Assembly: GCA_964419565.1 (NCBI GenBank)
Contig: CAYQPW010000001.1
Location: 88,754 to 152,753 of the forward strand
Direction: 5' to 3'
Origin: an uncultured bacterium
GTDB lineage: Bacteria > Hydrothermota > Tepidihabitantia > SM23-42
Length of the DNA: 64,000 bases
This document shows, piece after piece, positions 32,521 through 64,000 of the stretch; positions within the stretch are counted from its first letter, which is position 1; the number at the start of each line of letters is the position of its first letter. Both the position numbers and the translations under genes were made by a program. Below the pieces are notes generated by a model. It saw nothing but the letters and a program-made list of their open reading frames with translations. It did no database searches and had not been told where the DNA came from.

Positions 32521-32631
32521 CAATGACTTTCACCCTGTTCGACATGGACGTCGACTGCAGTGAAACCTTTTGTCCAAATCTTACGTATAATAAGCAATGA
32601 ATAACAATATTAGAAAGAATAAGGAGGTAAA

Positions 32632-33054: not shown

Positions 33055-33064
33055 AGTTAGCACC

Positions 33065-33098
33065 AAAAGCCCCTGCTTTGTGCAGGGGCTTTTTATTT
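33065..33098 (+). terminator. rho-independent terminator
   Basis: aaaa-GCCCCTGC-tttgt-GCAGGGGC-tttttatttc. Confidence 0.7.
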
Positions 33099-33144
33099 CA
33101 TAGCGAAAACCGCTTGACTAACGGGTAAAAACATGGCATATTAA

Positions 33145-36100
33145 ATGCATATCTATGATACGACCACAATTAACAGGCAAAGAATCTGTCCTATGAAGCC
33201 GAATAGTTTTCTTGATTCGATTTTCATAGGGCGTAAAAAAGAGATCACCTTACTCAAAAAAAAATTAAATGATGTCCTTGGAAATAACGGCAATTGCCTG
33301 TTTATAACAGGCGAAACGGGTATCGGTAAAACTCGTCTTGTCGATGAATTTATTTCAAAAGAGGCCGGTAATGCACTGGTTTTCAGGTTAGATGCAAAAT
33401 CACATACATCAAGCGCGCGAGATTTCTTTGCCGAGATCATCAGGCTATACCTGCAGAGGGTAAGCCACAATACACGGACGATAACAAAGGCTATCGACGA
33501 TCAAATGTATAATGAATTTGCCGACACGCTCCCTGAATTGAGTCTATACTATCCATATGAAGCTAAAACACGAGATAAAGCAATTACCGGATCTGAAATG
33601 AATGCTTTGTTTTATCGTTTTTTGTCGAATACAACAGACCTTGCCCCGGTTATTTTGATCATTGATGATTTTCATGAATCAGCTTGTGATGTCCGGGATT
33701 TGCTTGAATACCTACTCCAGCATATAGGAGATGGATCTGCTTTTTTAGTTCTCATTGCGCGTGAAAATCCGGCACTTTTGAAATGGTTTGATGAAGTTGA
33801 ATCACAATCAGTAGAGAGAATCGTCCTGCATCATCTTGATGAGGAAGAGTTAATGGATCTGAATGCCACCCTGTTCAAAAATGAGATGGATGAGATTTTC
33901 ATCAAATGGCTGTGCGCCAAGACCAAAGGTGTTCCTCTGTTTTTAAAAGAGTTTTTATACGCGATGTTCGAAAAGGGTATTATCTATTATGATAGTGAAA
34001 ATACGCGCTGGAAAACGATAAGTTCATATTTACAGATCGATATACCTGACCGGGTGACTGAGATGATCAAGTCGCGTTTTCAAAATCTCCCCGATGATAC
34101 CATCATCTTCCTCAAAGTCGCCTCAGTAATAGGAGATAATTTCGATCCGTCGATAACGGTCCTTAATGGGAAAAAGGCCATAATATCGTCGCTTCGGAGG
34201 ATGGGATTCATCACGAAAAAACATGATGAATATGTTTTTGCACACCCTTTGATCCGTGAAACTCTATATGAGCAGATACCAGCGCAGGAAAAGATAAAAC
34301 TCCATCACAAGATCGGTGATTTCTTCCTTGAACATGGCTATAAAAAACAAGCGGTCGAGCACTTGCTTTCTGCTCATGAAAAGAGCACCAGGGTATTGCA
34401 ACTACTTCTAAGGCTCGGTAAAGAGTCACGCCAGGCAGGTGATTATGCACGGAGTCATCATTATCTGGAAAATGCACTTTCTATTGCCCGTCAAAAAAAT
34501 AAGATAGCACCAAAAAAGCTCGTTGACATAATGCTCGATTTTTCGAAAAGCCTATTCCTCTATGAAAAATATGGTCAGTTTTTTGATCTATCAAAGACGA
34601 TTATTCCTTTTATTAAAAAACACCGGCTAAATGTCGATGATAAAAGACTTCTAAGTTATTATAATGAGTTAACTCAGGTACTCCGGCATCTCGGGAAATA
34701 TCAAGAGGCACTCAAAATGGTAAATAGAGGGTTACGACTGATCAGGAAGGTTAAAGCCGGTAAATTCGATGAGCTAGAACTTGAACTTGTCATGAACCGG
34801 GCTTTTTTGTTAAAGAATATGGGCAAGGTCGATAATGCCTTGCACCAGGTGCTCAAGATAAAAGAGATCTATGCTGACACTGCTTCTTCTTTTGATCGCT
34901 ATAATATCTACAGGTTATTAGGCTCGATATATAATGAAAAACACAACTTCAAAGAAGCGGTAACCTATCGTGAAACTGCCCTTGCTGCGGCGCAGGAAAC
35001 CCAGATAGGTCATATCATAGCAGCATCTTTAGGTAATCTCGGTGTTTCCTATGCAAATTCCGGTGAACTGACAAAGGGCATGGGTTATCTGCGGCAGTAT
35101 CAGAATTACAATATTCGTGCAGGCAGATTGAGAGCTGAGCTCGTATCGTATATACACATCGCACAGATATATTTTAACCAGGGTTATTTTCCCCGGGCAG
35201 AGAGCGAATTCAACAAAGGTATCAAGCGCTGGACTCGCTTTGGAACGCGTCTAAAAGAAGTGCAATACGAACTCGAGTACCGGTACGGGACTTTTCTGGT
35301 CGTTGATGAAAAATATGAAAAGGCACATGGACATCTCATGACTGCGCTCAAGCTGGCTGAGGAGTTTGATAATCAAACAGTGAAGATCTATCCGCTTTTA
35401 AACCTAGGGTGTCTGTATGTCGGTATTAAGGATAAAAAAAACTTGAATAGAACACTCAAAACGATCAGTGATAGTTTTAAAGATAGCGCAAAAAAATTTG
35501 CTACTTTCAATATCCTCCGCGGATTTCAGTCACTCTTTGAAAAGAAAAGAAAAAAGGGTCTCGAGCAAATAGAAAAAGGTCTGCAAATGCTACGGTCGAT
35601 GAAAAACATGACAGGTTTGTTTAGATTGTTATATCTTTGCATTATCTATTTAAAGGCAGGCAAAGCTGGTGAAAAAATAATACGGCAATATATGACCGAA
35701 GCGCGGGATATCGCTCAAAGATTGCATATGACCGGTTGGCTCGAGCGATTTGACGTTAAACAGAAAAAACCCGCTGCTCAGCCGCTCAAAATACATTGTT
35801 GCGGTTCTTTCCTTATTGAACACCCTGTGCACGGTTTGATCGGTGATGAACAATGGCAGCGCGCAAAGCCAAAGCAGCTATTATCAATATTGATCTCAAG
35901 CATGCTTACTGGCTTACGTGTCGACCGGGCCAAGATCGGTTCCATGCTCTGGCCTGAGTTATCAACGACAAAAATGATCAATAATTTCCACGTCTGCCTA
36001 CATCAACTCAAGGCGATAATCGGAAAACACTATATAAAGCACGTAAGAGGCGTATATAGACTCGAAAACGTATGGATCGATGTCGATAAATTCAAAGAGC

Positions 36101-36513
36101 TGACCCATGACGCCGAGATGCTATTTCAAGAGGGTAAGATCCATCTTGCCGAGATCAAACTCAAGGGAGCAATGGAGCTTTATCATGGTGATTTTCTTGA
36201 AAATACGTACGATCCCTGGGTCGAGGATGTTAGAAACACGTACGCTGCCTTGTACCGTGAGCGCATGTTAATGCTGGGCAGAATATATTTTAAGAAACTG
36301 AAATTTGAAAGTGCAATACAACTCGGCAAAACAATCTTAGCATCCGATCCTTTCGACGAAGAAGGGCACCGTTTTTTGATGCGTGCACACCTTGGCAGCG
36401 GCGAAAAGGCCAAAGCGATAAATCAATACAAAAAATGTGTTGAATTATTCAAAAGAGAACTCAATTGTCTGCCTTCAGAAGAGACCCAGCAAGTATATAA
36501 AAAACTCCTTTAA
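33145..36513 (+). CDS. STAND-type AAA ATPase - TPR - C-terminal SARP (OmpR-type wHTH + BTAD) transcriptional regulator
   Basis: P-loop ...FITGETGIGKTRLVDEF... (Walker A), long TPR-like middle region. C-terminal ...AKPKQLLSILI...GLRVDRAKIGSMLWPE... (wHTH) followed by ...LYHGDFL...DPWV...R...Y (BTAD). True start may be the ATG at 33193 (MKPNSFLDSIFIGRKKEI). Confidence 0.75.
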   Translation: MHIYDTTTINRQRICPMKPNSFLDSIFIGRKKEITLLKKKLNDVLGNNGNCLFITGETGIGKTRLVDEFISKEAGNALVFRLDAKSHTSSARDFFAEIIRLYLQRVSHNTRTITKAIDDQMYNEFADTLPELSLYYPYEAKTRDKAITGSEMNALFYRFLSNTTDLAPVILIIDDFHESACDVRDLLEYLLQHIGDGSAFLVLIARENPALLKWFDEVESQSVERIVLHHLDEEELMDLNATLFKNEMDEIFIKWLCAKTKGVPLFLKEFLYAMFEKGIIYYDSENTRWKTISSYLQIDIPDRVTEMIKSRFQNLPDDTIIFLKVASVIGDNFDPSITVLNGKKAIISSLRRMGFITKKHDEYVFAHPLIRETLYEQIPAQEKIKLHHKIGDFFLEHGYKKQAVEHLLSAHEKSTRVLQLLLRLGKESRQAGDYARSHHYLENALSIARQKNKIAPKKLVDIMLDFSKSLFLYEKYGQFFDLSKTIIPFIKKHRLNVDDKRLLSYYNELTQVLRHLGKYQEALKMVNRGLRLIRKVKAGKFDELELELVMNRAFLLKNMGKVDNALHQVLKIKEIYADTASSFDRYNIYRLLGSIYNEKHNFKEAVTYRETALAAAQETQIGHIIAASLGNLGVSYANSGELTKGMGYLRQYQNYNIRAGRLRAELVSYIHIAQIYFNQGYFPRAESEFNKGIKRWTRFGTRLKEVQYELEYRYGTFLVVDEKYEKAHGHLMTALKLAEEFDNQTVKIYPLLNLGCLYVGIKDKKNLNRTLKTISDSFKDSAKKFATFNILRGFQSLFEKKRKKGLEQIEKGLQMLRSMKNMTGLFRLLYLCIIYLKAGKAGEKIIRQYMTEARDIAQRLHMTGWLERFDVKQKKPAAQPLKIHCCGSFLIEHPVHGLIGDEQWQRAKPKQLLSILISSMLTGLRVDRAKIGSMLWPELSTTKMINNFHVCLHQLKAIIGKHYIKHVRGVYRLENVWIDVDKFKELTHDAEMLFQEGKIHLAEIKLKGAMELYHGDFLENTYDPWVEDVRNTYAALYRERMLMLGRIYFKKLKFESAIQLGKTILASDPFDEEGHRFLMRAHLGSGEKAKAINQYKKCVELFKRELNCLPSEETQQVYKKLL

Positions 36514-36600
36514 GCCACCCCAGTAGATCCCTGAAAGCGTTGTCAGTGTTTACTTTAAGCATGTTAAGAGCGATGTTAAGAAGTCCCTGTATAATGATCT

Positions 36601-36798
36601 ATGAAAGAAATAATAGCGATTTGTTCAAAATGCGGTTTTGTTTCGGTTACAAAAAAAGAGAAGTATTGTCCCAATTGCGGATTAGAATTGATCAAAAAAT
36701 GCCCGTACTGTAAAGAACCGATCGATCATCCTATGGCGCAGTATTGTCCGGTCTGCGGGGCGATGTATACACAACCAAAAACCGTAAACCGGAGATAA
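36601..36798 (+). CDS. double zinc-ribbon protein (65 aa)
   Basis: Four CxxC pairs: CSKCG...CPNCG...CPYCK...CPVCG. Confidence 0.55.
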   Translation: MKEIIAICSKCGFVSVTKKEKYCPNCGLELIKKCPYCKEPIDHPMAQYCPVCGAMYTQPKTVNRR

Positions 36799-36818
36799 TG
36801 TTGGTAAGAGGAGGAAAC

Positions 36819-39701
36819 ATGAAAGGTTTGAAATTGTGCATTATAGCACTGTGTACAGTGTTTCTGCTGTATGCACAGACATCTGGCGTATCCGTTGACA
36901 ATATACGTTTAGCGCCAAGATTACTCAATTACCAGGCGTATCTGACCGATACACTCGGTGTGCCGATCGATGATTCGCTCGACATGACAATAAAAATCTT
37001 CGATGCGGTATCGGGTGGTAATGAGCTGTGGTCAGAGACCCAGACGAATGTGCCTATCGAAAGCGGTGTTTTCAGCGTCATGCTCGGTGAAGTAACGCCG
37101 ATACCAGATAGTGTGTTCTCTGATTTCACAGACACATGGATTGAATTGACACTTGAGGGACCCCAGATATTGACACCCCGTACGCGCATTACCTCAGTCG
37201 GCTATGCCTATACTTCAACGTATTCGGACACGAGCGAGTATGTAAGGATCGGCTTGCCAGATAGTGATTGGGTTTTTAACAACAATCGTCTTTACCCGGC
37301 TGGTGATTATGGGTTAGCCATGCGCAGCAGTAATGTGATGTGGGGTACAGCTTTCAATACCCATGTTAATTTTGGGGTTGCGTGTACGACCGGAGTTTTG
37401 ATGCTTAACAATGAATACTGTACAGTGGGCGGCGGCTATCGTAACCGTGCAACTTATTCTTCAGCGACGGTTGCTGGTGGCTGGCAGAATACAGCAGCTC
37501 ACCATTATGCTGCGGTTGGTGGTGGAAGTTATAATTATAATGGCGGTTATTATTCAGTTATCCCTGGCGGTTATGCCGATACGATCACTGCGACAGGTGG
37601 TTATTCATATTTGTTCGGCATTAACTCGAACCTTACCCAGGATTCAACCTTTATGGTCGACATGCCGCACATAAGATTCGGCGATGAGTCGAGTGGCTAT
37701 GAATTCCCGGTTCAGGACGGGTCAAACGGGCAGGTGATCCTGGCAAATGGCAGCGGTCAGTTATCCTGGACCAACATTTCGTCTTTAGGCAACTGGCCCA
37801 AGATCGATTCAGTGCTTTATACAAATAAGTACTGGGGTATTGCGCGCGGTGGTGCTGATAATGTTCTATATGGTGACAGCACGCATACTCATATTAATTT
37901 AGGAGCAGCATGCACGACCGGTATGAGTGGCTACAATATCAGATATTGCACAGTCAACGGCGGATACCGAAACCTTGCCACTAATAACGGTGCAACGGTA
38001 CGTGGTGGATTGTTGAATTTCGCAGGAGGTAATTATTCATCCGTAGGTGGCGGTTGTGCTGATAGTGCTGAACATCACTATGCAACAGTGGGTGGTGGGG
38101 ATTTTAACCGCGCCAGGCAGCAATATGCAACAGTCGGTGGCGGGAAGGATAACGACGCTCGTGAATACTATACGGTGGTTTGCGGCGGCGAGGTCAACCG
38201 CGCTCGTGCACAATGCGCAGCAGTTGGAGGCGGGCAATATAACATTGCCGACGATCGTTGTGCAATTGGCGGCGGATTTAGTAAGAGCGCTTCTGGCTTC
38301 TGTGCTGCAGCAGTTGGGGGAGATGCAAGTATTGCAACAGATGATTTTGCGGCGATTTGCGGTGGACTAAATAACCATGCCTCTTTAGATTATTCAAATG
38401 TGGGAGGTGGATATAATAACGCGAGTTGGTTGGATTATTCGACGATAACCGGCGGTTATGCAGATACAGCGTGGGCACGGTATGGCGGTATTATATCGGG
38501 CTGGCACAATACTGCGGGCGATACCTTGACTGATACTGCCGCTTTTGTCGGCGGCGGAAGAGATAATGCAGCGTTTGCACCGTATGCGTTTGTAGGCGGC
38601 GGTTATGCAGATAGTGTATGGGCTATGTACGGCGGTATTATATCGGGTTGGCATAATATCGCAGGAGATGCATCAACTGATACTGCTGCATTTATTAGTA
38701 GTGGAAAAGACAACGCCGCGATAGCACAATATTCAACGGTAAATGGTGGGCATGCCGACACAGTTCATGGCGTATATGGCGGTATAGCGTCTGGATACAG
38801 TAATTTTGCCGGTAATGTAGTATCAGATACCGCAGCAAATATAGCTGGCGGCTGGAGCAATCTTGCCGCGGCCAAATACTCATTTGTCGGCGGCGGTCGT
38901 GATAACATTGCCGACAGTGCCTATGCTGTGGTTGGCAGTGGATATCACAACAGCTCCAGTGGTAACTATACGACCGTGATCAGCGGATTGAATAACAGAA
39001 CATATGCGCGATACGCGGCCGTGGGTGGTGGAATAAATAACCGGGCAAACGCACAATATGCAACGGTAAATAGCGGCGATCAAAATACAACCAGCGGCGA
39101 TTATTCGACTATTGCAGGCGGCTATGCCGATACTGTTGCAGCATATGCTGGTTTTGCGACAAATTATAGTACCAAGGTCAATGTCAGCGATACTAATTCA
39201 GCTGCATTTACGACAAGTCATACGACCGCGCCAAATCAAGTTCGTGCTGCAGCATTCTCTACCGGGTCATTGGTCTTTTCTATGGACCATCCAATAAACC
39301 CTGCAGAGAAGATCCTTAACCAATATGCCGTTGGATCATCCGAGGCAGTGTTGTTATATAACGGCAATGCATTTATTGGAGAAAACGGTCGTATCAGAGT
39401 TTTCTTACCCAATTATTTTGATGGGATTAATAAGAATCCACGCATTCAATTGACCGGTGTTGGTTCTTCTGATGTTGTGTATGTGGTAAAAGAAGTTAAA
39501 GGCAATTCATTTATTATCGGCGGTAAACCGGGTATGAAAGTTTACTGGACGGTTACTGCGGAGCGCGAAGATATTCATGCTGAGATCGCGCGCATTCATA
39601 CACCGATTGAACAACCAAAAACCGATGATCTCATCGGGCATTCACTTGACCATGATGCATCCATCGGATTCAGTGGATATTGGTTTTTGAGGGGGGAATA
39701 A
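36819..39701 (+). CDS. large secreted beta-roll repeat protein (adhesin / tail-fibre-like), paralog 1 (~960 aa)
   Basis: Start moved to the ATG at 36819 (GAGGAGG RBS, signal peptide MKGLKLCIIALCTVFLLYAQ). Conserved ~110-aa N-domain (LLNYQ.YLTDT.G.PIDDSLDMT.KIFDAVS.GNELWSETQT.VPIE.GVFS). Tens of 15-aa (Y/F)ATVGGG..N.AS.. repeats. Motif YSYLFGINSNLTQDSTFMVDMPHI.FG...GYEFP..DGS.GQ.L...GSGQLSW. Conserved ~170-aa C-domain. No T9SS tail. Confidence 0.8.
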   Translation: MKGLKLCIIALCTVFLLYAQTSGVSVDNIRLAPRLLNYQAYLTDTLGVPIDDSLDMTIKIFDAVSGGNELWSETQTNVPIESGVFSVMLGEVTPIPDSVFSDFTDTWIELTLEGPQILTPRTRITSVGYAYTSTYSDTSEYVRIGLPDSDWVFNNNRLYPAGDYGLAMRSSNVMWGTAFNTHVNFGVACTTGVLMLNNEYCTVGGGYRNRATYSSATVAGGWQNTAAHHYAAVGGGSYNYNGGYYSVIPGGYADTITATGGYSYLFGINSNLTQDSTFMVDMPHIRFGDESSGYEFPVQDGSNGQVILANGSGQLSWTNISSLGNWPKIDSVLYTNKYWGIARGGADNVLYGDSTHTHINLGAACTTGMSGYNIRYCTVNGGYRNLATNNGATVRGGLLNFAGGNYSSVGGGCADSAEHHYATVGGGDFNRARQQYATVGGGKDNDAREYYTVVCGGEVNRARAQCAAVGGGQYNIADDRCAIGGGFSKSASGFCAAAVGGDASIATDDFAAICGGLNNHASLDYSNVGGGYNNASWLDYSTITGGYADTAWARYGGIISGWHNTAGDTLTDTAAFVGGGRDNAAFAPYAFVGGGYADSVWAMYGGIISGWHNIAGDASTDTAAFISSGKDNAAIAQYSTVNGGHADTVHGVYGGIASGYSNFAGNVVSDTAANIAGGWSNLAAAKYSFVGGGRDNIADSAYAVVGSGYHNSSSGNYTTVISGLNNRTYARYAAVGGGINNRANAQYATVNSGDQNTTSGDYSTIAGGYADTVAAYAGFATNYSTKVNVSDTNSAAFTTSHTTAPNQVRAAAFSTGSLVFSMDHPINPAEKILNQYAVGSSEAVLLYNGNAFIGENGRIRVFLPNYFDGINKNPRIQLTGVGSSDVVYVVKEVKGNSFIIGGKPGMKVYWTVTAEREDIHAEIARIHTPIEQPKTDDLIGHSLDHDASIGFSGYWFLRGE

Positions 39702-42667
39702 TGAAATTATTCAAGATACTTCTTTTATTCTTATTCGTATTTTGTAATCTCTATGCACAGATGACACGTGTTTCAATGGACAATGGACGGTTGGTGCCTC
39801 AGCTGCTCAATTACCAGGGCTATCTTACTGACACGACTGGTATTCCAATTGATGATTCGCTCGATATGACGTTTAAAATATTTGATGCCGTGTCGAGCGG
39901 TAATGAATTGTGGTCAGAAACACAGACAAGTGTCCCGATCGAGCGCGGCGTGTTCAGTATCATACTCGGTGAGATAACACCGATCCCGGACAGTGTCTTT
40001 GACGATTTTTCAAACACATGGTTCGAGCTAACACTTGAAGGACCTCAGACCTTAGCGCCCCGCACGCGCATCACGTCAGTAGGGTATGCATATACTTCAA
40101 CGTATTCGGACACGGCTGAGTTCGCAAGAGTGGGCGCAGCAGATAATGACTGGATTGTCAACAGTAATCGTCTTTACCCGGCTGGTGACTATGGGTTAGC
40201 GATGCGCAGCAGTAATGTCATGTGGGGGTCAAATCTCAATACCCACGTGAATTTTGGCGTGTCCTGTACGACCGGTACCCTCTTACAGAACTATAATTAC
40301 TGCACTATCGGCGGTGGCTATCGTAATCGTGCAACACATTCTGCGGCGACCGTTGCCGGTGGATATCAGAATACCGCGGCTTATCATTATGCTGCGGTGG
40401 GCGGTGGGCGTTACAATTATAATGCCGGTTACTATTCAGTTATTCCAGGCGGTTATGCAGATACGATCACCGCGACCGGTGATTATTCGTATCTTTTCGG
40501 TATCAACAGCAACCTCACCCAGGATTCGACCTTCATGGTCGACATGCCGCACATTTGGTTTGGGAATGAAACAGGCGGGTATGAATTTCCAACATCAGAT
40601 GGTTTGGCTGATCAGACATTAATCACAGATGGCAGCGGACAGCTGAATTGGTCTGATGTGCCGTCATCAAGCAACTGGTCAGTTACCGATTCTGTGCTTT
40701 ATACAAATAATTACTGGGGTCTGACCCGCGGTGGTGCTGATAATGCTCTTTATGGTGATTTTGCTTATAGCCATGTCAATTTAGGAGTTGCATGCACGAC
40801 TGGATATTACCTAAGTAATAATTCATACTGCACTGTCAGCGGTGGATATCAAAACTCCGCCAGTGACTGGTACGCCACAATTGGCGGAGGTTTACAGAAC
40901 ATTGCGAGTGACTGGTACGCGACGGTCGGTGGAGGTTTACAGAATACGGCCAGTAATAACTACACGACCATAGGCGGCGGAGACAATAACCAGGCACTTG
41001 AACAGTATGCAACGATCGGCGGCGGATGGAATAACACTGCTGGTGGTTTATTTTCCACTATTGGCGGCGGTTATTGGAACACTGCAATTGGTGATTATGC
41101 AGCGATCTGCGGAGGACAGAGTAATCTGGCTGCTGGCGATTATGCAACTGTAGTTGGCGGTCAAAATAACCTTGCTGATAGCGCCTATACGACTATTGGC
41201 GGTGGTTATTATAATAAGGCGAGTGGTGATTATGCAGCAGTGAGCGGCGGTTATTATAGCCATGCTCTGGGCTATTGTACATATGTTGGTGGTGGTTATC
41301 GTAATAATGCAGTTGGTTATTGTGCGTTTGTAGGCGGCGGTTATGCGGATACAACGCGCGCAGATTATGGCGGTGTTGCATCGGGTTGGCATAATACTGC
41401 AGGAGATGCTTTGACTGATACCGCTGCGTTTGTGGGCGGCGGGAAAGATAATGCAGCTTTTGCACCGTATGCGAATGTCGGAGGTGGCTATGCAGATACT
41501 GTATGGGCTTTATATGGCGGTGTTGCATCGGGTTGGCATAATACTGCAGGAGATGCTTTGACTGATACCGCCGCGTTTGTGGGCGGCGGCAAAGATAATG
41601 CAGCGCTTGCACCGTATGCGAATGTTGCTGGTGGATATGCAAATACGGTTCAGGCACTGTATGGCGGTGTTGCATCGGGTTGGCATAATATAGCAGGAGA
41701 TGCTTCTAATGATACCGCTGCGTTTGTCGGCGGCGGGAAAGATAATGCCGCGTTTGCGCCGTATGCGAATGTCGGAGGCGGCTATGCAGATACTGTTTAT
41801 GCAGTGTACGGTGGTATTGGTTCTGGATACAGTAATCTGGCCGGCGATGAGACGGCAGATACTGCAGCAGCGGTTGCAGGTGGCTTGAACAATTCAGCTA
41901 CGGGTAAATATTCGTTTGTCGGCGGCGGTCGCGATAACATCGCCAGTGCAGATTACGCATCAGTAGCCAGTGGGTTTCAGAATACGGCCAGCGGCAATTA
42001 TGCGGTAGTAGCCGGCGGTTATGATAATACTGCTTCATCCTATGCGAGTTTTGCGGCGAATTCCGGCTCTCAAGCCTCCCACAATATGTCCGCAGCGTTT
42101 ACTATTAGCCATACCACAGCACCACTTCAAGTCCGCGCAATGGCGTTTTCCACAGGGACATTGGTTTTCTCGATGGATCATCCGTCCGATCCGATGAACA
42201 AGATACTCAATCAACATGCTGTGGGGTCTTCTGAGGCAATATTACTATATAATGGTACTGCGACTATTGAAGAAAATGGTCGTGTCGAGGTATTGCTTCC
42301 TGATTATTTTGAAAAGATCAATAGGAATGCCTGTATCCAGATAACCGGTGTCGGTTCTTCTGAGGTCGTGTTTGTTGCCGAAGATTTAAAAGGAAATTCA
42401 TTTATTATCGGCGGTCAGCCCGGCACAAAAGTCTACTGGACTGTGACCGGCGAGCGTACGGATATCCACGCCGAGATCGCGCGCACCCTGACCCCGGTCG
42501 TCCAGGAAAAGACCGGTGATTTGATCGGACACTCGCTCGACGATGATGCGCTCATCGGTATTTACGATCGCCTGCAGCAAGAAAAACCTGGTATGTTTTC
42601 ATTTAAAACTGAAGAAGGCCGCCGTGTCCACGAACAGAGTAAACAAACTGTAGAGAGTAGGGAGTAG
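39701..42667 (+). CDS. large secreted beta-roll repeat protein, paralog 2 (~988 aa), tandem to paralog 1
   Basis: ATG at 39701 overlaps the upstream stop (TAATG). Signal peptide MKLFKILLLFLFVFCNLYAQ. Same architecture; N- and C-domains ~75% identical to paralog 1. Confidence 0.8.
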   Translation: MKLFKILLLFLFVFCNLYAQMTRVSMDNGRLVPQLLNYQGYLTDTTGIPIDDSLDMTFKIFDAVSSGNELWSETQTSVPIERGVFSIILGEITPIPDSVFDDFSNTWFELTLEGPQTLAPRTRITSVGYAYTSTYSDTAEFARVGAADNDWIVNSNRLYPAGDYGLAMRSSNVMWGSNLNTHVNFGVSCTTGTLLQNYNYCTIGGGYRNRATHSAATVAGGYQNTAAYHYAAVGGGRYNYNAGYYSVIPGGYADTITATGDYSYLFGINSNLTQDSTFMVDMPHIWFGNETGGYEFPTSDGLADQTLITDGSGQLNWSDVPSSSNWSVTDSVLYTNNYWGLTRGGADNALYGDFAYSHVNLGVACTTGYYLSNNSYCTVSGGYQNSASDWYATIGGGLQNIASDWYATVGGGLQNTASNNYTTIGGGDNNQALEQYATIGGGWNNTAGGLFSTIGGGYWNTAIGDYAAICGGQSNLAAGDYATVVGGQNNLADSAYTTIGGGYYNKASGDYAAVSGGYYSHALGYCTYVGGGYRNNAVGYCAFVGGGYADTTRADYGGVASGWHNTAGDALTDTAAFVGGGKDNAAFAPYANVGGGYADTVWALYGGVASGWHNTAGDALTDTAAFVGGGKDNAALAPYANVAGGYANTVQALYGGVASGWHNIAGDASNDTAAFVGGGKDNAAFAPYANVGGGYADTVYAVYGGIGSGYSNLAGDETADTAAAVAGGLNNSATGKYSFVGGGRDNIASADYASVASGFQNTASGNYAVVAGGYDNTASSYASFAANSGSQASHNMSAAFTISHTTAPLQVRAMAFSTGTLVFSMDHPSDPMNKILNQHAVGSSEAILLYNGTATIEENGRVEVLLPDYFEKINRNACIQITGVGSSEVVFVAEDLKGNSFIIGGQPGTKVYWTVTGERTDIHAEIARTLTPVVQEKTGDLIGHSLDDDALIGIYDRLQQEKPGMFSFKTEEGRRVHEQSKQTVESRE

Positions 42668-42975
42668 AGAGAAAGGGAATACACATCCGCCACATTCATG
42701 GCGTATTGAAGACACGCTGACGCTGAAGACATGTCACTTCGTTCCTGAAGGCACGCTACGCTGAAAAAAACCAGAAAAGCTGGAAGGACAAATATAACGA
42801 TATCAACGATCTCTAACTTAAATCACTGCAATCTGCTTATGCATCTCTGTAATCGACACCGTGGGTGAAACGATCTAAACGATCCAAACGTCTTTTAACA
42901 ACTTAGTTACTTAATGACTATTCTTTTACTAATCCTTTTTGTTTTGCTGCTTACTGCCTAGTTCCTAGTGCCTAC
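42655..42975 (+). repeat. mosaic intergenic repeat element, copy 4 (longest)
   Basis: Begins ...agagaaagggaatacacatccgccacattcatggcg...ttgaagacacgctgacgctgaagacatgtcacttcgttcctgaagg... Ends ...ttgctgcttactgcctagttcctagtgcctactgtc, which resembles the inverted 19795-19825 motif and 44008-44045. Boundaries approximate. Confidence 0.55.
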
Positions 42976-42983
42976 TGTCTTTT

Positions 42984-43256
42984 CTACGATCTCAGTGGCA
43001 TTTCGATGCGCAAAAGTCCGTGTCCAAATGCAGCTATCGCCTTTTTCGCGATGACCGGGAAGCGGAAGCACATGTACTTGGCATAATGTATATCGCCGGA
43101 AACTGCAAAAAGGATCAAGCACCTGGAATTGACTCTTAATTTTATATTATTTTGTGAGACATTGGGCAGCACTATCTCGACGGTCATATGATTCATCTGG
43201 TCATCAAGGTACGTGCATACCTCAGGCTCTAATTTCTTGCGGATAAAGGGCTTCAT
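42984..43256 (-). CDS. minimal alpha-crystallin-domain (Hsp20-like) protein, 90 aa; paralog of 20261-20530
   Basis: ...EPEVCTYLDDQMNHMTVEIVLPNVSQNNIKLRVNSRCLILFA...LLRIEMPL. Start overlaps the upstream gene stop (ATGA). Confidence 0.6.
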   Translation of the reverse strand: MKPFIRKKLEPEVCTYLDDQMNHMTVEIVLPNVSQNNIKLRVNSRCLILFAVSGDIHYAKYMCFRFPVIAKKAIAAFGHGLLRIEMPLRS

Positions 43257-43657
43257 AAGAATGTAATCTCCTTTAAAGCGGTCAAAATCGCAAATATCCG
43301 CTCATTGTTACTTGCTCTATCAATTGGATTGAAGAAGAAACCCTGGCGCTGTACTGAATAACCATTAGTGATCCCGTAGAGAATTTCGCCATCCAGAAAT
43401 TCAACCTTTACTTTTTTACCGTAAACTTTTATTCCTTTAAAATCGTCGAAAGATTTCTTTAATGACGAATGGCCGTTTCCATTCAAGTCCTTGACAAAAA
43501 AGACCGCTTTGAGCACGTGCGTGTGCACGATAAACGGTCTATCTCCTTGTTCTGTTTTTATCATTAGATGGAATACTTCCTTATCCGGGTTAAAGTCGGT
43601 TGTATAGCCCCGGATAATTGCTCCATCAAGAAAACGTGCGACAACTTTATTTAACAT
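43253..43657 (-). CDS. hypothetical protein with internal duplication (134 aa), translationally coupled to the ACD-like gene
   Basis: Two related halves: ...VARFLDGAIIRGYTTDFNPDKEVFHL... and ...VEFLDGEILYGITNGYSVQRQGFFFNP... Confidence 0.5.
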   Translation of the reverse strand: MLNKVVARFLDGAIIRGYTTDFNPDKEVFHLMIKTEQGDRPFIVHTHVLKAVFFVKDLNGNGHSSLKKSFDDFKGIKVYGKKVKVEFLDGEILYGITNGYSVQRQGFFFNPIDRASNNERIFAILTALKEITFL

Positions 43658-43889
43658 GATCCATTCCTTTCTATATTTATATACAGCAGATACTCGACTT
43701 TATTCATTGTAAAGGGTTTTCGAGTTCGTGTTTTAATAGGCTTCATACCCTTATAATATGCAAATCATATGCCAGTCAAATGTTTTGAAATTTCAAGGAT
43801 TTATAGATATTTCATGCACAAATCAACAGTTCTCTGCACAAAAATTGTGCAGTATTTTAGCTCTTCTGGTCTTTTTTGTTTTTTTAGTT

Positions 43890-44060
43890 ACTCAATTACA
43901 TAATTACTATTCTCTTACGAACACGAATAACGATTCACGAATACGATTTTATTTGGTCTTTTTAGTTATTGTGGTTTTTCTCTTTGCTCTTTACTCATTA
44001 CGCCATACGCTTTTGCTGCTTACTGCCTACTTCTTAGTGTCTGCTGTCCGTTTACTCAGT
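43890..44060 (+). repeat. mosaic intergenic repeat element, copy 5
   Basis: ...tacgaacacgaataacgattcacgaatacgatt... and ...ttgctgcttactgcctacttcttagtgtctgctgtc, related to 30850-30870 and 42938-42973. Confidence 0.5.
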
Positions 44061-45424
44061 TTATGCCGGTACATCGACCGGTCAGCAGTCGACAGTAATT
44101 TATATACTGTTTGTGGTTTTTCCGGGTTGTAATGAGCCCAGCCGATGCTCAGCCTGAGGGAGAAAGGCAAGCTTGTTTTTTTGTTGAATGAATCAAGGCT
44201 TGCCAGTAATCGAATATAAAGGTCTTGAGCACGGGTTTCCCCGGTTTCTGAGGTTAGTACAACGAATTCATCACCACCGATGCGGGCTATTATGTCGGAT
44301 CTACGGAACGTCGCTTTAAGTATGTTAGTTGTTTCGATCAAAGCCCGGTCTCCGATCGCATGACCGAATTTATCGTTTATCGCTTTGAGATTATCGAGGT
44401 CGGTAAAAAGCAGGATCACCGCTTTTCTCTTGGATACGGCGATCTTTAATTGATGTTCGGCCAGGGTCATAAAACCGCGCCGGTTGTACAGTCCGGTAAG
44501 ATCATCGACCAGAGAAAGAGCACGCAGCTGGTCTTCTTTCTGCTTACGCTCGGTAATGTCTTCGATCACACCATCTATCCATTTTACCTGACCTCTGTCA
44601 TCAGACTGCGCGCGCGCATAGATCGATACCCATATTGGTTTTCCGTCTTTTTTCTCCATTAAAATTTCACGATTTTTAACGAATTTCTTACGCTTCAATT
44701 CTTTTATCAACCCGAGTCGATCCTTACGATCATGATATAATTCCTGAACCTTGATTTTCAGCAGCTCTTTCAATGATTTGTAGCCAAACATCTTGACCAG
44801 GGCAGGGTTAACCTGCACAAAATGGCCTTCAGGATCGCCCGTAGTTCGAAAGACACCGACATTTACGTTTTCAACGATCGTCCTGAATTTGATATCGATA
44901 TCACGAAGAGCCAATTCCGCAGTTTTATGTTCAGTAATGTCCTGTGTAAGGATGACGATCTGCTCGACCTTTTTCCTTTTGTTCTGGATCGCATAATAAT
45001 ACTGTGATATCCACATCGTTGCGTTCGTCTTTTGATTGTGCACTTTGAGTTCAGGCAGGAATAATTCACCGCCGTGTTCAAAAATACGCCTGAATTTTGA
45101 TATTTTGCCCTTGAGGTAAGGATATCTTTTGCTCAACGGCAGATACCTGGTTTTTCTGTCTTGTATCATGACCTGCCGCGTTGTAAGCCCCCATAATTTT
45201 TTCCAGGCTTTATTGACGAAGAGAAGATCTCCAAAGCGATCGCGGATAGAGATGCCGACCGGTGAATGGTCGAACAATGCGTGGTTAAGTACTTTACTTT
45301 TACGCAGCATTTCTTTGAGTTGTAGGTTCACGGTTTCGAGCTTACTAACGCGCTGGTTTGACCTACGCTGTTTTTTCTTTTTTAATCGATTCTTGCTTTT
45401 TCGTTTACTAGTTTTTTTCTTCAT
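44027..45424 (-). CDS. PAS-PAS-GGDEF diguanylate cyclase with Lys/Arg-rich N-terminus
   Basis: C-terminal GGDEF domain with ...RIGGDEFVVL..., two PAS-like regions, N-terminal MKKKTSKRKSKNRLKKKKQRR. Confidence 0.8.
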   Translation of the reverse strand: MKKKTSKRKSKNRLKKKKQRRSNQRVSKLETVNLQLKEMLRKSKVLNHALFDHSPVGISIRDRFGDLLFVNKAWKKLWGLTTRQVMIQDRKTRYLPLSKRYPYLKGKISKFRRIFEHGGELFLPELKVHNQKTNATMWISQYYYAIQNKRKKVEQIVILTQDITEHKTAELALRDIDIKFRTIVENVNVGVFRTTGDPEGHFVQVNPALVKMFGYKSLKELLKIKVQELYHDRKDRLGLIKELKRKKFVKNREILMEKKDGKPIWVSIYARAQSDDRGQVKWIDGVIEDITERKQKEDQLRALSLVDDLTGLYNRRGFMTLAEHQLKIAVSKRKAVILLFTDLDNLKAINDKFGHAIGDRALIETTNILKATFRRSDIIARIGGDEFVVLTSETGETRAQDLYIRLLASLDSFNKKTSLPFSLRLSIGWAHYNPEKPQTVYKLLSTADRSMYRHKLSKRTADTKK

Positions 45425-45712
45425 TACACGCTAAGGCTAGGTAATAATACACATATATTAAAAAAAAGTCAAGGGAAAATATCACCATATCAGTAAACCT
45501 CCTCACATCATAGACTTAAGTCTAATTATATCGATTTATTATAATTTGTCAACACCCATGTTGATTATTGTTTATTTCTTGTAGTCGCCCGATTCATCGG
45601 GTAATGTCTGATAAATCAGACGACTACAGTCTATTTTTGGTTTTTTTAATCTTTTTATTTACCTGATTTTCTGATAGCCTGATCTGCATGATCAAAACGT
45701 TTTTGTGTAAAA

Positions 45713-61828: not shown

Positions 61829-64000
61829 ATGTGTCGCATAGCATTAATTGTATCATTACTATTCCTGTCATTTGCATTCAATCAGGCAGGTGATGTCTCA
61901 ATACAAGAAAGTCGTTTGATCCCTAAATTATTGAACTACCAGGGTTATCTTACCGACACGCTCGGTATTCCGATCGATGATACACTCGACGTGACCTTCA
62001 AGGTTTTCGATGCCGTATCGAGCGGTAATGAGCTGTGGTCAGAGATGCAAACAAATGTGCCGATCGAACGCGGCGTGTTCAGCGTCATGCTCGGTGGAAT
62101 AACACCGATCCCGGACAGCGTGTTTGCTGATTTCACGAGTACGTGGCTGGAACTCACGCTCGAAGGTCCGCAGACTCTCACACCCCGCACGCGTATCGTA
62201 TCGTCAGCTTACGCCTACACTGCAACCTATTCAGACACGGCGCTTTACGCGATTAATGCGGTCCCGGACAATGACTGGAATTTTCGCGTGACCGATGGCG
62301 CGGATACGACCCTGCAAATGAACGGTCGCTGGGGCATGGCGCGTTTCGGCAATACGATGATTGGCAACGCCGACAGCACGCATACTAACCTTGGTATCGG
62401 CAGCACTACAGGGTTCCCCAGTCAAAATTTTAAATATTGCACAATCGGCGGCGGCTACGGCAACACAGCCAGAGGCCCAGGGGCGACAATAAGCGGCGGC
62501 TACGGCAATAGCGAGATTGTCAATGGCAATGGAGCAACAATCGGCGGCGGTTACTACAACTCATCCAATCATGAGTATACGACAGTAGGCGGCGGCTACA
62601 GTAACTATGCCGGTCAATTTGGGGCGACAATAAGCGGCGGCTACGACAATAATGCCAGTAGTTATTGTGCAACAATAAGTGGCGGGTACCAAAACGTAGC
62701 CAGTACTAATGATTTTGCGACCGTGGGCGGCGGCAGAGCCAATCTAGCCAGTAGCTTTGCTGCGACCGTGGGCGGCGGTACCTACAACACTGCCAGCGCT
62801 AGTAATGCGACCGTTGGTGGCGGTACTTATAATACCGCGAGCGCTAACTTTGCGATCGTGACCGGTGGATACTATAACGGTAATGCTGGTGATTATTCCG
62901 CGATCCTTGGTGGTTACGCAGATACGATCACGGCGGCCGGGGACTATTCCTACCTCTTTGGCATCAATAGCAACCTTACCCAGGATTCGACATTCATGGT
63001 CGACATGCCGCATATCTGGTTTGGTACTGAAGCAGCTGGTTATGAATTCCCGACAACCGACGGTACTAATGGCCAGGCGCTCGTTACAGATGGCAGCGGT
63101 CAGGTATCATGGGCGGCGACGAACGACAATGACTGGAATTTTCTTGTGTCCGATGGTGCGGATACGACACTGCAAATGGGCGGCCGCTGGGGTCTGGCGC
63201 GTTTCGGCAACACGATGTACGGTAATGCTGACAGCACGCATGTGAACTTCGGCGTGGCCTGCACGACTGGAACAAATGGGCAAAACTATGGATATTGCAC
63301 AGTTGGCGGCGGATACTATAACTCAGCCGGCGGTGGTTTCAGTGCAACCGTGAGTGGTGGAGATTATAACAAGGCCAACGGGAATCGTGCAACTGTGGGT
63401 GGTGGACAGAGTAACACTGCTAGCGGTTGGTGTGCGACAGTTAGTGGTGGAATCTTCAACACGGCCAGCAATTGGTATGCGACCGTGGGTGGCGGAGAAC
63501 AAAACGGAGCCGGCAACCAATATGCGACCGTGGGTGGCGGCCGCCAAAACACCGCCAGCGGCTGGATCGCGACGGTGTCCGGCGGATGGAACAACACCGC
63601 CAGTAGCGATAGAGCAACTGTGAGCGGAGGAGAAGCCAACATGGCCAGTGATCAATATACGACCGTGGGTGGTGGACAAGCGAACATAGCTAGCAGCGTG
63701 CATGCGACCGTGGCCGGCGGGCGCGAAAACACCGCCAGCGGTTATGCTGCAATCGTAGGCGGTGGATGGGGCAATATTGCTAGCGGCTATTGTGCGACCG
63801 TGGGCGGTGGCGGGGATAATGACGCAGGTGAATATGCTACCGTAGGCGGCGGTGGGTTTAATCATGTGGCGGGTAGGTATTCCGCGATCTTGGGCGGGTA
63901 CGCGGATACAATCGCGGCGACCGGCGATTATTCCTACCTCTTTGGCATCAACAGCAACCTTACCCAGGATTCGACATTCATGGTCGACATGCCGCATATC
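61829..64000 (+). CDS. large secreted beta-roll repeat protein, paralog 3 (3' end beyond window; >=724 aa)
   Basis: AAGGAGG RBS, ATG at 61829, signal peptide, same N-domain (LLNYQGYLTDTLGIPIDDTLDVTFKVFDAVSSGNELWSE...). Reading frame checked open by hand. Absent from the ORF track only because no stop occurs before nt 64000. Contains two NDWNF...YSYLFGINSNLTQDSTFMVDMPHI modules. Confidence 0.75.
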   Translation, partial: MCRIALIVSLLFLSFAFNQAGDVSIQESRLIPKLLNYQGYLTDTLGIPIDDTLDVTFKVFDAVSSGNELWSEMQTNVPIERGVFSVMLGGITPIPDSVFADFTSTWLELTLEGPQTLTPRTRIVSSAYAYTATYSDTALYAINAVPDNDWNFRVTDGADTTLQMNGRWGMARFGNTMIGNADSTHTNLGIGSTTGFPSQNFKYCTIGGGYGNTARGPGATISGGYGNSEIVNGNGATIGGGYYNSSNHEYTTVGGGYSNYAGQFGATISGGYDNNASSYCATISGGYQNVASTNDFATVGGGRANLASSFAATVGGGTYNTASASNATVGGGTYNTASANFAIVTGGYYNGNAGDYSAILGGYADTITAAGDYSYLFGINSNLTQDSTFMVDMPHIWFGTEAAGYEFPTTDGTNGQALVTDGSGQVSWAATNDNDWNFLVSDGADTTLQMGGRWGLARFGNTMYGNADSTHVNFGVACTTGTNGQNYGYCTVGGGYYNSAGGGFSATVSGGDYNKANGNRATVGGGQSNTASGWCATVSGGIFNTASNWYATVGGGEQNGAGNQYATVGGGRQNTASGWIATVSGGWNNTASSDRATVSGGEANMASDQYTTVGGGQANIASSVHATVAGGRENTASGYAAIVGGGWGNIASGYCATVGGGGDNDAGEYATVGGGGFNHVAGRYSAILGGYADTIAATGDYSYLFGINSNLTQDSTFMVDMPHI

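What the first reader, a model, noticed from the sequence alone, without database searches (positions are those of the whole stretch)
36819..42667. Tandem pair (plus a distant third copy) of ~980-aa secreted beta-roll repeat proteins
Two back-to-back genes (stop/start TAATG) and a third paralog at 61829-64000 share four elements. (1) A signal peptide ending YAQ or QAG. (2) A conserved ~110-aa N-domain. (3) Dozens of 15-residue repeats (Y/F)ATVGGG..N.AS.. that resemble YadA-head / Hep_Hag-type left-handed beta-roll units. (4) A conserved motif ...FMVDMPHIWFG...GYEFPT.DG..GQ.L.TDGSGQLSW, reminiscent of the opening motif of Bacteroidota tail-fibre-domain proteins. The first two also share a ~170-aa C-domain. 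None has the T9SS tail found on other cargo proteins here, so a different export or display route is implied. They may be adhesins or phage-tail-fibre-like surface fibres. The repeats are Cys-poor and Gly/Ala/Thr/Asn/Tyr-rich.
Basis: partly seen in the sequence, partly recalled or inferred. Interest (0 to 1): 0.65.

Follow-up and report, generated by a model that had tools for sequence, protein, structure and literature searches.

The report
Phage-like surface fibre proteins, WOR-3 bacterium
Three neighbouring genes of an uncultured WOR-3-type bacterium encode long secreted fibres that join the anchoring domain of Bdellovibrio's prey-recognition fibres to an adhesin-type beta-roll shaft and a phage-tail-like tip, which puts this recently described kind of fibre in many uncultured phyla.

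Summary
P1 (36819-39701, 960 aa) and P2 (39701-42667, 988 aa) overlap in TAATG. P3 (61829 to the window end) is a third paralogue.

All three share four parts:
- a signal peptide;
- a ~120-aa N-domain;
- about 30 fifteen-residue turns;
- a strictly conserved connector.

P1 and P2 also share a C-domain.

What the parts are:
- **N-domain:** homologous to the N-domain of Bdellovibrio mosaic adhesive trimer (MAT) fibres. NCBIfam Bdello_MAT_N matched 22 of 22 relatives, but every score is below the curated cut-off.
- **Repeats:** the left-handed beta-roll of the UspA1 adhesin head (PDB 3pr7, E 6e-41).
- **C-domain:** not Peptidase_S74. It is a beta-sandwich with a helical tail, related to phage minor-tail and tailspike C-termini. 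It has no Pfam or NCBIfam model, yet occurs in at least 12,110 protein clusters.

The N-domain always follows a signal peptide. It sits on proteins of 253-1909 aa with swapped tips, including C1q/TNF-like and tail-collar tips. These occur in tandem arrays in WOR-3, Zixibacteria, Ignavibacteria, Omnitrophota and other phyla.

The genes are not phage-borne, not autotransporters and not T9SS cargo.

Best reading: Sec-exported, probably trimeric, MAT-like surface adhesin fibres. This is a new variant of a known kind. A BTAD regulator and a small zinc-ribbon gene are conserved upstream.

The parts
33145..36513 (+). Associated regulator: 1122-aa AAA_16 ATPase - TPR - BTAD transcriptional activator, directly upstream of P1
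   Evidence: Pfam BTAD 4.6e-20 and AAA_16 1.8e-18. The same family lies directly upstream on the same strand of N-domain fibre genes in L006, L013 and L008 (23-82% identity), and next to one in divergent orientation in L009.
36601..36798 (+). 65-aa ORF with four CxxC pairs (double zinc ribbon), between the regulator and P1
   Evidence: Sequence read. Weak Zn-ribbon NCBIfam hits. Conserved at the same position in L006 (86%), L013 (38%) and L008 (41%).
36819..39701 (+). P1, 960-aa fibre gene. Signal peptide 36819-36878; N-domain 36888-37253; beta-roll 1 37404-37559; connector 37560-37769; cap plus beta-roll 2 ~37794-39143; C-domain 39195-39671, which lacks the terminal helical tail
   Evidence: An identical gene is on Logan contig L001.
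39701..42667 (+). P2, 988-aa fibre gene whose start overlaps the P1 stop (TAATG). Signal peptide 39701-39760; N-domain 39770-40138; beta-roll 1 40286-40441; connector 40442-40651; cap plus beta-roll 2 ~40676-42055; C-domain 42086-42661
41366..41796 (+). 147-nt (49-aa, three-turn) tandem repeat inside beta-roll 2 of P2; 2.9 copies, 88% identical
   Evidence: The short-read contig L001 ends at 41395. P0056 equals P2 minus one unit.
61829..64000 (+). P3, third paralogue, cut by the window end (724 aa seen). N-domain 61895-62263; beta-roll 1 ~62423-62902; connector 62903-63112; cap plus beta-roll 2 ~63113-63886; second connector from 63887
   Evidence: The orthologue in L005 is 1611 aa and has no C-domain.

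Best explanation
P1, P2 and P3 are Sec-exported, probably homotrimeric cell-surface fibre adhesins of the mosaic adhesive trimer (MAT) type.

Proposed working, from the cell outwards:
- A cleavable signal peptide takes the chain across the inner membrane.
- The conserved ~120-aa beta-sandwich N-domain sits next to the cell and docks the fibre on a surface element that is still unknown.
- The shaft is built from modules. Each module has a cap (NDW...THVN.G..CTTG), a run of 15-residue left-handed beta-roll turns like the UspA1 head, and a rigid conserved connector.
- The distal C-domain is the ligand-binding tip. It is a phage minor-tail/tailspike-like beta-sandwich with a short helical tail.

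Paralogues and relatives keep the N-domain and swap shafts and tips, which gives a repertoire of binding specificities. Expression is probably controlled by the adjacent AAA-TPR-BTAD regulator and the small zinc-ribbon protein.

Shown here: the domain homologies, the mosaic architecture, the multi-copy arrangement, and the absence of S74, YadA-anchor and T9SS signals.

Inferred: trimer state, surface retention, adhesive function and regulation.
For: **N-domain**
- Bdello_MAT_N (NF053851) matched P2 at E 1.4e-5 for the whole protein and 1.6e-7 for the domain alone.
- It matched 22 of 22 N-domain relatives, best 4e-13.
- The AF2 model is a beta-sandwich (pLDDT 76) with no specific PDB match. The MAT paper says the same of its own N-domain (PMC10769870).

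**Position and mosaicism**
- In 79 loci the N-domain is always N-terminal, on ORFs of 253-1909 aa. Tandem arrays reach five genes.
- Only a subset of these proteins carries the C-domain.
- Other tips include C1q/TNF-like (L009), phage tail collar (P0020) and tail-fibre motifs (P0024).
- 104 of 209 fetched proteins have both the N- and the C-domain.

**Shaft:** the UspA1 head, PDB 3pr7, matched at E 6e-41, 4e-24 and 8e-24. UspA1_rep scored above Pfam's cut-off in P2.

**Tip**
- Foldseek's best PDB matches are phage tailspikes and a pyocin fibre (7eea at E 8e-4).
- BFVD gave 31 matches at E<=1e-3. The top one is the Arthrobacter phage Mufasa8 minor tail protein (1.4e-10).
- tblastn confirmed that match (34.5% identity, 1e-10).
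- The C-domain also follows collagen triple-helix repeats in P0142, which fits a position at the end of a trimer.

**Operon:** the TAATG overlap with an internal ribosome-binding site, and no terminator-like site on the + strand between P1 and P2.

**Regulator cassette:** conserved in four genomes.
Against: - Every Bdello_MAT_N score is below NCBI's curated cut-off (31 against 60 bits for P2). For P2 only the first half of the domain aligns (residues 32-93 to profile positions 13-76 of 162).
- In the cited MAT paper the solved Bdellovibrio fibre regions (Bd3182, Bd2133) are trimeric beta-helices, not UspA1-type beta-rolls. The shafts are therefore not shown to be homologous.
- No trimer model could be made; both structure predictions were of monomers.
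- No anchor or export partner is conserved within 6 kb.
- Nothing here shows surface display or any ligand.
- WOR-3 bacteria are not known predators, so the Bdellovibrio function cannot simply be transferred.
- P1 lacks the terminal helical tail and might be impaired.
Confidence: 0.66

Rival explanations
1. They are domesticated or resident phage tail-fibre or tailocin receptor-binding proteins. They would be assembled onto a phage-tail-like particle, not onto the cell.
For: The C-domain is related to phage minor-tail and tailspike C-termini. Some family members carry tail-collar and tail-fibre modules with PHROG hits.
Against: - All members start with a Sec-type signal peptide, which phage fibres lack.
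- The neighbours are a regulator, a GGDEF protein, Hsp20 and metabolic genes, with no phage structural genes.
- P1-P3 have no PHROG hit, and the N-domain has none.
- Pattern scans of IMG/VR with the N- and C-domain profiles confirmed no relative.
- No conserved tail or baseplate neighbour appears in 79 loci.
Confidence: 0.07
2. They are beta-roll proteins with a non-adhesive physical role, such as ice-binding or antifreeze activity or a surface coat or S-layer-like sheath. The flat faces of the repeats would be the functional part, not the tip.
For: Weak LbR_Ice_bind hits: E 0.006-0.014 in P2 and P3, and 8e-7 (29.5 bits against a cut-off of 30) in the L002 relative. PDB 3ult, an ice-recrystallisation inhibitor, matched at E 0.009-0.07.
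Against: - All these hits are below threshold and are many orders of magnitude weaker than the UspA1 match.
- They reflect the shared 14-15-residue left-handed roll.
- The conserved N-domain with swapped tips, including lectin-like C1q, is the signature of a receptor-binding fibre, not of a coat.
Confidence: 0.07
3. They are the passenger part of a split trimeric autotransporter or two-partner system, and the membrane anchor is encoded elsewhere.
For: The head repeats are of the trimeric-autotransporter type (UspA1).
Against: - There is no YadA_anchor or any beta-barrel domain in P1 or P2.
- In autotransporters the anchor is C-terminal and fused to the passenger. Here the C-terminus is a phage-like sandwich.
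- No conserved outer-membrane partner lies within 6 kb in 79 loci.
- No coiled-coil stalk was seen.
Confidence: 0.05
4. They are released, soluble proteins such as lectin-like bacteriocins or matrix and biofilm scaffold proteins. In that case the N-domain is a fold or oligomerisation module and not a cell anchor.
For: No anchor motif, lipobox or sorting tail was found. A GGDEF gene lies next to the genes. MAT anchoring is unproven even in Bdellovibrio (PMC10769870).
Against: Strict conservation of one end with free swapping of the other fits presentation from a fixed platform. MAT proteins were shown to be surface-exposed on Bdellovibrio (PMC10769870).
Confidence: 0.1

Closest known systems
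Bdellovibrio bacteriovorus mosaic adhesive trimer (MAT) fibres (Caulton et al. 2024, PMC10769870; NCBIfam NF053851 Bdello_MAT_N)
   Same: - A signal peptide is followed at once by a conserved beta-rich N-domain of ~120-130 aa, which is detectably homologous.
- The proteins are about 1000 aa.
- There are many paralogues per genome, with one conserved end and swapped C-terminal tips. The tips include TNF/C1q-like and phage-like folds.
- The 'non-S74' subgroup ends in beta-sandwich tips.
   Different: - Scores are below the curated family cut-off.
- The host is a WOR-3-type bacterium not known to be predatory.
- The shaft is made of UspA1-type 15-residue beta-roll modules joined by a family-specific connector, not the beta-helix regions described in the solved Bd fibre fragments.
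- The tip is a different domain, one that is widespread.
- There is a linked BTAD regulator plus zinc-ribbon cassette.
UspA1 / YadA-type heads of trimeric autotransporter adhesins (PDB 3pr7, 3ntn; Pfam UspA1_rep)
   Same: The same 15-residue GGG-x-N-x-A left-handed parallel beta-roll turn. Sequence matches reach E 6e-41.
   Different: - There is no neck, coiled-coil stalk or C-terminal YadA anchor barrel.
- The rolls are much longer (about 27 turns) and occur as repeated modules.
- Export is by an N-terminal signal peptide only.
- The cell-proximal end is presumed to be the N-terminus, the reverse of an autotransporter.
Phage minor tail proteins, tailspikes and tail fibres (Arthrobacter phage Mufasa8 gp19; cyanophage Pam1 tailspike 7eea; R2 pyocin fibre 6cl6)
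   Same: The C-domain beta-sandwich resembles their C-terminal domains: 34.5% identity to Mufasa8 gp19, and Foldseek probability 1.0 to 7eea. Overall it is a modular fibre with a distal receptor-binding tip.
   Different: The genes are chromosomal, outside any phage context, and carry signal peptides. The N-terminus is not a phage baseplate-attachment domain, as it has no PHROG hit.
Peptidase S74 intramolecular chaperone domain (endosialidase CIMCD; S74-type MATs such as Bd3182)
   Same: It occupies the same C-terminal position on trimeric fibres. UniRef labels one homologue (P0033) 'Peptidase S74 domain-containing'.
   Different: There is no PF13884 hit in 19 members at E<=10. hhalign probability against the K1F domain is 0.2%. 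The SDxxxK dyad is not conserved, and no S74 structure appears among the best 50 PDB matches listed.

Membership tests
MAT (mosaic adhesive trimer) superfamily | A signal peptide followed at once by the conserved ~130-aa beta-rich N-domain | tested here: met
   The hydrophobic leaders end LYAQ or NQAG. The N-domain starts at about residue 24. Bdello_MAT_N matched 22 of 22 relatives at E<=0.01, best 4e-13. AF2 gives a beta-sandwich.
MAT (mosaic adhesive trimer) superfamily | Score above the curated NCBIfam cut-off for Bdello_MAT_N (60 bits) | tested here: not met
   P2 scores 25 bits as a whole protein and 31.2 bits for the domain alone. It is therefore a distant relative, not a member of the Bdellovibrio subfamily model.
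MAT (mosaic adhesive trimer) superfamily | Mosaic build: a conserved N-end with swapped C-terminal tips, and many paralogues | tested here: met
   There are three paralogues in the window and tandem arrays of up to five elsewhere. Tips include the C-domain, C1q, tail collar and others.
MAT (mosaic adhesive trimer) superfamily | Homotrimeric fibre displayed on the cell surface | not testable with these tools
   Only monomer prediction was available. The trimer is inferred from the trimeric UspA1 head and from the C1q and collagen partners of the shared domains.
Trimeric autotransporter adhesin (type Vc) | YadA/UspA1-like head repeats | tested here: met
   PDB 3pr7 at E 4e-24 to 6e-41. UspA1_rep scored 29.6 bits against a cut-off of 27 in P2.
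Trimeric autotransporter adhesin (type Vc) | C-terminal YadA_anchor beta-barrel translocator | tested here: not met
   No such Pfam or NCBIfam hit at E<=1 in P1 or P2. The C-terminus is a soluble sandwich plus helices.
Peptidase S74 / intramolecular chaperone (ICA) domain | Match to PF13884 and a conserved SDxxxK catalytic dyad | tested here: not met
   None of 19 members matched at E<=10. The K1F control scored 5.7e-10. hhalign probability is 0.2%. The motif occurs only in P2 and is not conserved in the alignment. PROSITE PS51688, the likely source of the UniRef label, could not be run.
T9SS cargo | C-terminal sorting domain (Por_Secre_tail type) | tested here: not met
   No HMM hit. The tails of P1 and P2 do not match the C-terminal domain shared by four other window ORFs.
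Phage tail fibre / tailspike | Encoded in a phage or prophage next to tail genes; no signal peptide | tested here: not met
   No phage genes nearby. No PHROG hits for P1-P3. No confirmed IMG/VR relative. Signal peptides are present.
Phage tail fibre / tailspike | C-terminal receptor-binding domain of a phage-fibre fold | tested here: met
   Foldseek hits 7eea, 9k4a, 4ru5 and 6cl6. BFVD gave 31 hits at E<=1e-3. tblastn to the Mufasa8 minor tail protein gave 1e-10.

The most novel reading that the evidence does not exclude
The window samples a very large, unmodelled family. Its members have a signal peptide, a MAT_N-like anchor domain, interchangeable trimeric shafts and interchangeable phage-like tips. 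Under the strong reading, many uncultured lineages (WOR-3, Zixibacteria, Ignavibacteria, Omnitrophota, Latescibacterota and others) use these fibres as a programmable system for recognising other cells. Each lineage would hold a repertoire of tips, and a dedicated STAND/BTAD regulator with a zinc-ribbon partner would switch the genes on. That would point to contact-dependent lifestyles such as predation, epibiosis or specific aggregation in phyla where none is known. It would also mean that Bdellovibrio's MATs are one branch of an ancient, general bacterial fibre system.
Probability: 0.3. Interest if true: 0.72.

Novelty: new variant of a known kind. Interest (0 to 1): 0.5.

Why it matters
MAT fibres were described only in 2024, as the prey-recognition toolkit of one predator. 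How they attach to the cell is still unknown.

- Finding the same N-terminal domain on tip-swapping fibres in WOR-3 and at least eight other, mostly uncultured, groups suggests the architecture is general and not specific to predators.
- These relatives give many independent sequences for working out what the anchor domain binds.
- The work exposes a widespread C-terminal tip domain (at least 12,110 clusters at 50% identity) that has no Pfam or NCBIfam model. UniRef mislabels at least one example of it as Peptidase S74.
- It shows a new way to build a fibre shaft: UspA1-type beta-roll modules with a rigid connector.
- A conserved regulator cassette offers a handle on when the fibres are made.

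Tried and rejected
**Ideas tested and rejected**
- Peptidase_S74 at the C-terminus: rejected.
- Trimeric autotransporter and T9SS cargo: rejected because the anchor and sorting domains are missing.
- Prophage or tailocin origin: no phage neighbours, no PHROG hits for P1-P3 or for the N-domain, and no confirmed IMG/VR relative.
- Assembly collapse or duplication artefact: rejected. The paralogues are ~75% identical in DNA, and an independent assembly agrees. Only the number of 147-nt units in P2 stays uncertain.

**Searches that found nothing useful**
- Profile searches of PDB sequences with the N-domain, the C-domain and the connector found nothing beyond UspA1.
- Foldseek of the N-domain model against the PDB gave only generic Ig-like sandwiches, all at E>=0.026.
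- A search for a conserved export or anchor partner within 6 kb of 79 loci found only the BTAD regulator family.
- The connector profile found only six short fragments in the 5.8-billion-protein collection.
- The literature search found no paper linking WOR-3 to tail fibres or to MAT proteins.

**Things that could not be done**
- The supplementary tables of the MAT paper that list non-Bdellovibrio homologues are not held as text.
- P0056 could not be traced to a contig.
Full report
**1.

The ORF listing and translations show three genes.
- P1 runs 36819-39701 (960 aa).
- P2 runs 39701-42667 (988 aa).
- P3 starts at 61829 and is cut by the window end (724 aa seen).

The P1 stop and the P2 start overlap in TAATG. 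A G-rich Shine-Dalgarno sequence lies inside the end of P1. No terminator-like site lies on the + strand between the two genes. They are therefore probably co-transcribed and translationally coupled.

All three proteins begin with a typical Sec leader ending LYAQ or NQAG.

The three-way alignment shows the following shared parts:
- the N-domain;
- a cap motif (NDW...THVN.G..CTTG);
- runs of 15-residue turns;
- the invariant connector YSYLFGINSNLTQDSTFMVDMPHI.FG.E..GYEFP..DG..Q.....GSGQ..W;
- for P1 and P2, a common C-domain.

The 15-residue period is very strong. Identity at lag 15 is 0.29-0.38, against 0.09-0.11 (sd 0.013-0.023) in shuffles. P2 has about 5 turns before the connector and about 27 after it. 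The distal part uses a 49-residue super-repeat of three turns.

**2. Not an artefact, with one caveat**

P1 and P2 are only about 75% identical in DNA, and P3 is more distant. An independent short-read assembly (Logan, SRR9700687) matches window 32321-41395 with a single mismatch.

That contig ends exactly where a 147-nt tandem repeat begins (41366-41796, 2.9 copies, 88% identical). A database protein, P0056, is P2 with exactly one 49-aa unit missing. The number of units in P2 is either polymorphic or uncertain. The genes themselves are real.

**3. N-domain**

NCBIfam gave a single hit, Bdello_MAT_N (NF053851, 'mosaic adhesive trimer family chimeric fiber protein'), to residues 32-93 of P2.

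A word-indexed search of 5.8 billion proteins with the N-domain found only 30 relatives. Most are short, apparently partial proteins, and the few that carry a name are from candidate division WOR-3. All 22 aligned members hit Bdello_MAT_N at E<=0.01, best 4e-13. All scores are below the curated 60-bit cut-off.

The AF2 model is a six- to seven-strand beta-sandwich (pLDDT 76). It has no specific PDB neighbour, no PDB sequence relative and no PHROG family.

This fits the MAT paper. [quoted passage not shown] The authors presume it binds a surface element of the predator (PMC10769870).

**4. Mosaic family**

A scan of one genome per GTDB species found 125 loci that encode the N-domain. The record titles name WOR-3, Zixibacteria, Ignavibacteria, Latescibacterota, Fermentibacteria, Omnitrophota, Bacteroidota, Nitrospirota, Planctomycetia and some 'Proteobacteria' MAGs.

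HMM searches over the 79 loci held showed the following:
- The domain is always N-terminal.
- It sits on ORFs of 253-1909 aa.
- Tandem arrays are frequent; L044 has five genes in a row.
- The P1/P2-type C-domain is present in only a subset.

Other members end in other tips:
- a C1q/TNF-like domain (L009, from the closest related genome), the fold used by Bd2439 and Bd2734;
- a phage tail collar (P0020);
- tail-fibre motifs (P0024).

Of the 209 proteins fetched, 104 have both the N- and the C-domain.

This is the defining MAT logic: one conserved end for presentation and one diversified end for binding.

**5. Shaft**

All three proteins match the crystallised head of the Moraxella adhesin UspA1 (PDB 3pr7) at E 6e-41, 4e-24 and 8e-24. 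The turns align in register (GGG.N.A...ysTigGG). P2 passes Pfam's cut-off for UspA1_rep.

That head is a trimer of left-handed parallel beta-rolls (established knowledge of 3pr7). This is the main basis for inferring a trimer here.

Weak sub-threshold hits to the grass antifreeze beta-roll reflect the same fold type.

**6. Connector**

Nineteen distinct copies were collected from family members. Each one follows a beta-roll. All but one lead into the next cap; the exception is the last connector of the L007 protein.

A profile of the connector shows that its first half is the last turns of a UspA1-like roll. Its second half (FMVDMPHI...GSGQLSW) has no PDB relative. Only six fragments in the large protein collection match it.

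I read it as a family-specific joint between shaft modules. This is an inference.

**7. C-domain**

It has no Pfam, NCBIfam or PDB sequence match.

An exhaustive HMMER search found it in 12,110 clusters at 50% identity with E<=1e-3, and in 1,476 with E<=1e-30. In the 150 best hits listed it lies at or near the C-terminus, on proteins of very different lengths.

The AF2 model (pLDDT 75) is a beta-sandwich (residues ~28-125) followed by helices.

Structural matches:
- The best solved matches are the cyanophage Pam1 tailspike (7eea, E 8e-4), Klebsiella phage depolymerase 9k4a, the phi297 tailspike and the R2 pyocin fibre.
- Among predicted viral structures there are 31 matches at E<=1e-3. The top one is the Arthrobacter phage Mufasa8 minor tail protein (E 1.4e-10, 32% identity). 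Cyanophage tail-fibre-like and collagen-repeat phage proteins are also listed.
- tblastn confirms the Mufasa8 match (34.5% identity, E 1e-10).

One homologue, P0033, is named 'Peptidase S74 domain-containing protein' by UniRef. The evidence is against that label:
- None of the 19 members hits PF13884 even at E<=10.
- The K1F endosialidase chaperone, used as a positive control, hits it at 5.7e-10.
- hhalign against that control gives a probability of 0.2%.
- SDxxxK occurs only in P2, at a non-conserved position.

The tip is therefore of the 'non-S74' kind.

P1 lacks the last ~35 residues (the helical tail), because P2 starts there.

**8. Context**

Directly upstream lie a 1122-aa AAA_16-TPR-BTAD regulator and a 65-aa ORF with four CxxC pairs. 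The same order of regulator, zinc ribbon and fibre gene is found in L006, L013 and L008. The regulators there are only 23-82% identical to the window's. L009 has such a regulator in divergent orientation.

No other gene family recurs near the fibre genes in 79 loci. No dedicated export or anchoring partner is evident.

Downstream are Hsp20-like, DUF6982 and GGDEF genes. In a related MAG this block is followed directly by the P3 orthologue (1611 aa, no C-domain), which shows a rearrangement between relatives.

Four other ORFs of the window share a 50-85-aa C-terminal tail that looks like a T9SS sorting domain. P1 and P2 do not have it. No T9SS model matched at the thresholds used.

**9. Mechanism and rivals**

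The best-supported reading has four steps:
- export by the Sec pathway;
- trimerisation;
- the N-domain docked at the cell surface;
- a rigid modular beta-roll shaft that presents a phage-like beta-sandwich tip to a ligand, most likely a surface glycan of another cell or particle.

From about 32 turns at roughly 4.8 Å each, plus the other domains, I estimate a shaft of some 20-30 nm.

The domain homologies and the mosaicism are shown. The trimer state, the surface retention, the ligand and the regulation are inferred.

The rival readings are less well supported, for the reasons given under each one: phage or tailocin fibre, ice-binding protein or surface coat, split autotransporter, and released lectin or matrix protein.

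**10. Novelty**

The kind is known (MAT fibres, 2024). The authors noted that other bacteria 'predatory and otherwise' have relatives.

These points are new in the sense that I found no description of them in the held literature:
- the WOR-3 and candidate-phyla distribution;
- the shaft of UspA1-type beta-roll modules with its connector;
- the very widespread tip domain that no database models;
- the linked regulator cassette.

I rate it a new variant of a known kind, of moderate interest.

Noticed in passing
window 33145-36513 and 36601-36798; L006, L013, L008, L009: A conserved cassette has a ~1120-1160-aa AAA_16-TPR-BTAD regulator, then a 65-aa double zinc-ribbon ORF, then the fibre gene(s). 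It keeps the same order and strand in four genomes, although the regulators are only 23-82% identical. The BTAD regulator family is the only gene family that recurs near N-domain genes in 79 loci.
   Followed up: yes
window 1-720, 18038-19789, 21598-22581, 31024-32313 (all + strand): Four otherwise unrelated ORFs, including an M14 peptidase and an FG-GAP protein, share a 50-85-aa C-terminal tail (36-56% identity). It ends ...GIYFVEIDNVIIQKVVKIR and looks like a T9SS sorting domain. No Pfam or NCBIfam T9SS model matched the ones scanned at the thresholds used.
   Followed up: partly
window 41366-41796: A 147-nt tandem repeat (2.9 copies, 88% identical) lies inside P2. A database protein (P0056) is identical to P2 except that it lacks one 49-aa unit. 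A short-read contig breaks at this point. This is either copy-number variation or an assembly uncertainty.
   Followed up: yes
window 61829-64000: P3 has GC3 of 0.57, against 0.42-0.43 for P1, P2 and the regulator; its overall GC is 54% against 45.5% for the window. This may indicate a different history, such as a recent transfer or a tip or shaft swap.
   Followed up: no
window 39600-39701: P1 ends ...HSLDHDASIGFSGYWFLRGE. It lacks the ~35-residue helical tail that P2 and nearly all the aligned relatives have, because P2 starts there. The tandem duplication junction seems to have truncated P1.
   Followed up: partly
L005 (JBARXB010000009.1) compared with window 42900-45600 and 61745-64000: In a related MAG the P3 orthologue (1611 aa, no P1/P2-type C-domain) lies directly after the Hsp20/DUF6982/GGDEF block. 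In the window that block follows P2, about 16 kb away from P3. The fibre loci are rearrangement points.
   Followed up: partly
L009 5887-8439 (CBFDDH010000001.1): In the closest related genome an 850-aa N-domain protein ends in a C1q/TNF-like domain (Pfam C1q 7.8e-7, above the cut-off). This is the tip fold of Bdellovibrio MATs Bd2439 and Bd2734.
   Followed up: partly
L044 1505-12290 (CAYUIF010000003.1): Five N-domain genes lie head-to-tail in a MAG labelled Alphaproteobacteria. A second contig of the same MAG (L069) carries three more. This is the largest array seen.
   Followed up: no
P0033 (OGC43550.1, UniRef100_A0A1F4UFH3): UniRef names this C-domain homologue 'Peptidase S74 domain-containing protein'. 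Neither Pfam PF13884, hhalign against the K1F chaperone, nor the catalytic motif supports that name. It is probably a database mislabel.
   Followed up: yes
window 42984-43657 (- strand): A 90-aa Hsp20-like ORF and a DUF6982 protein overlap by 4 nt and are followed by a PAS-GGDEF cyclase. All three are conserved (86-87% identity) next to the fibre gene in the related MAG L005.
   Followed up: no
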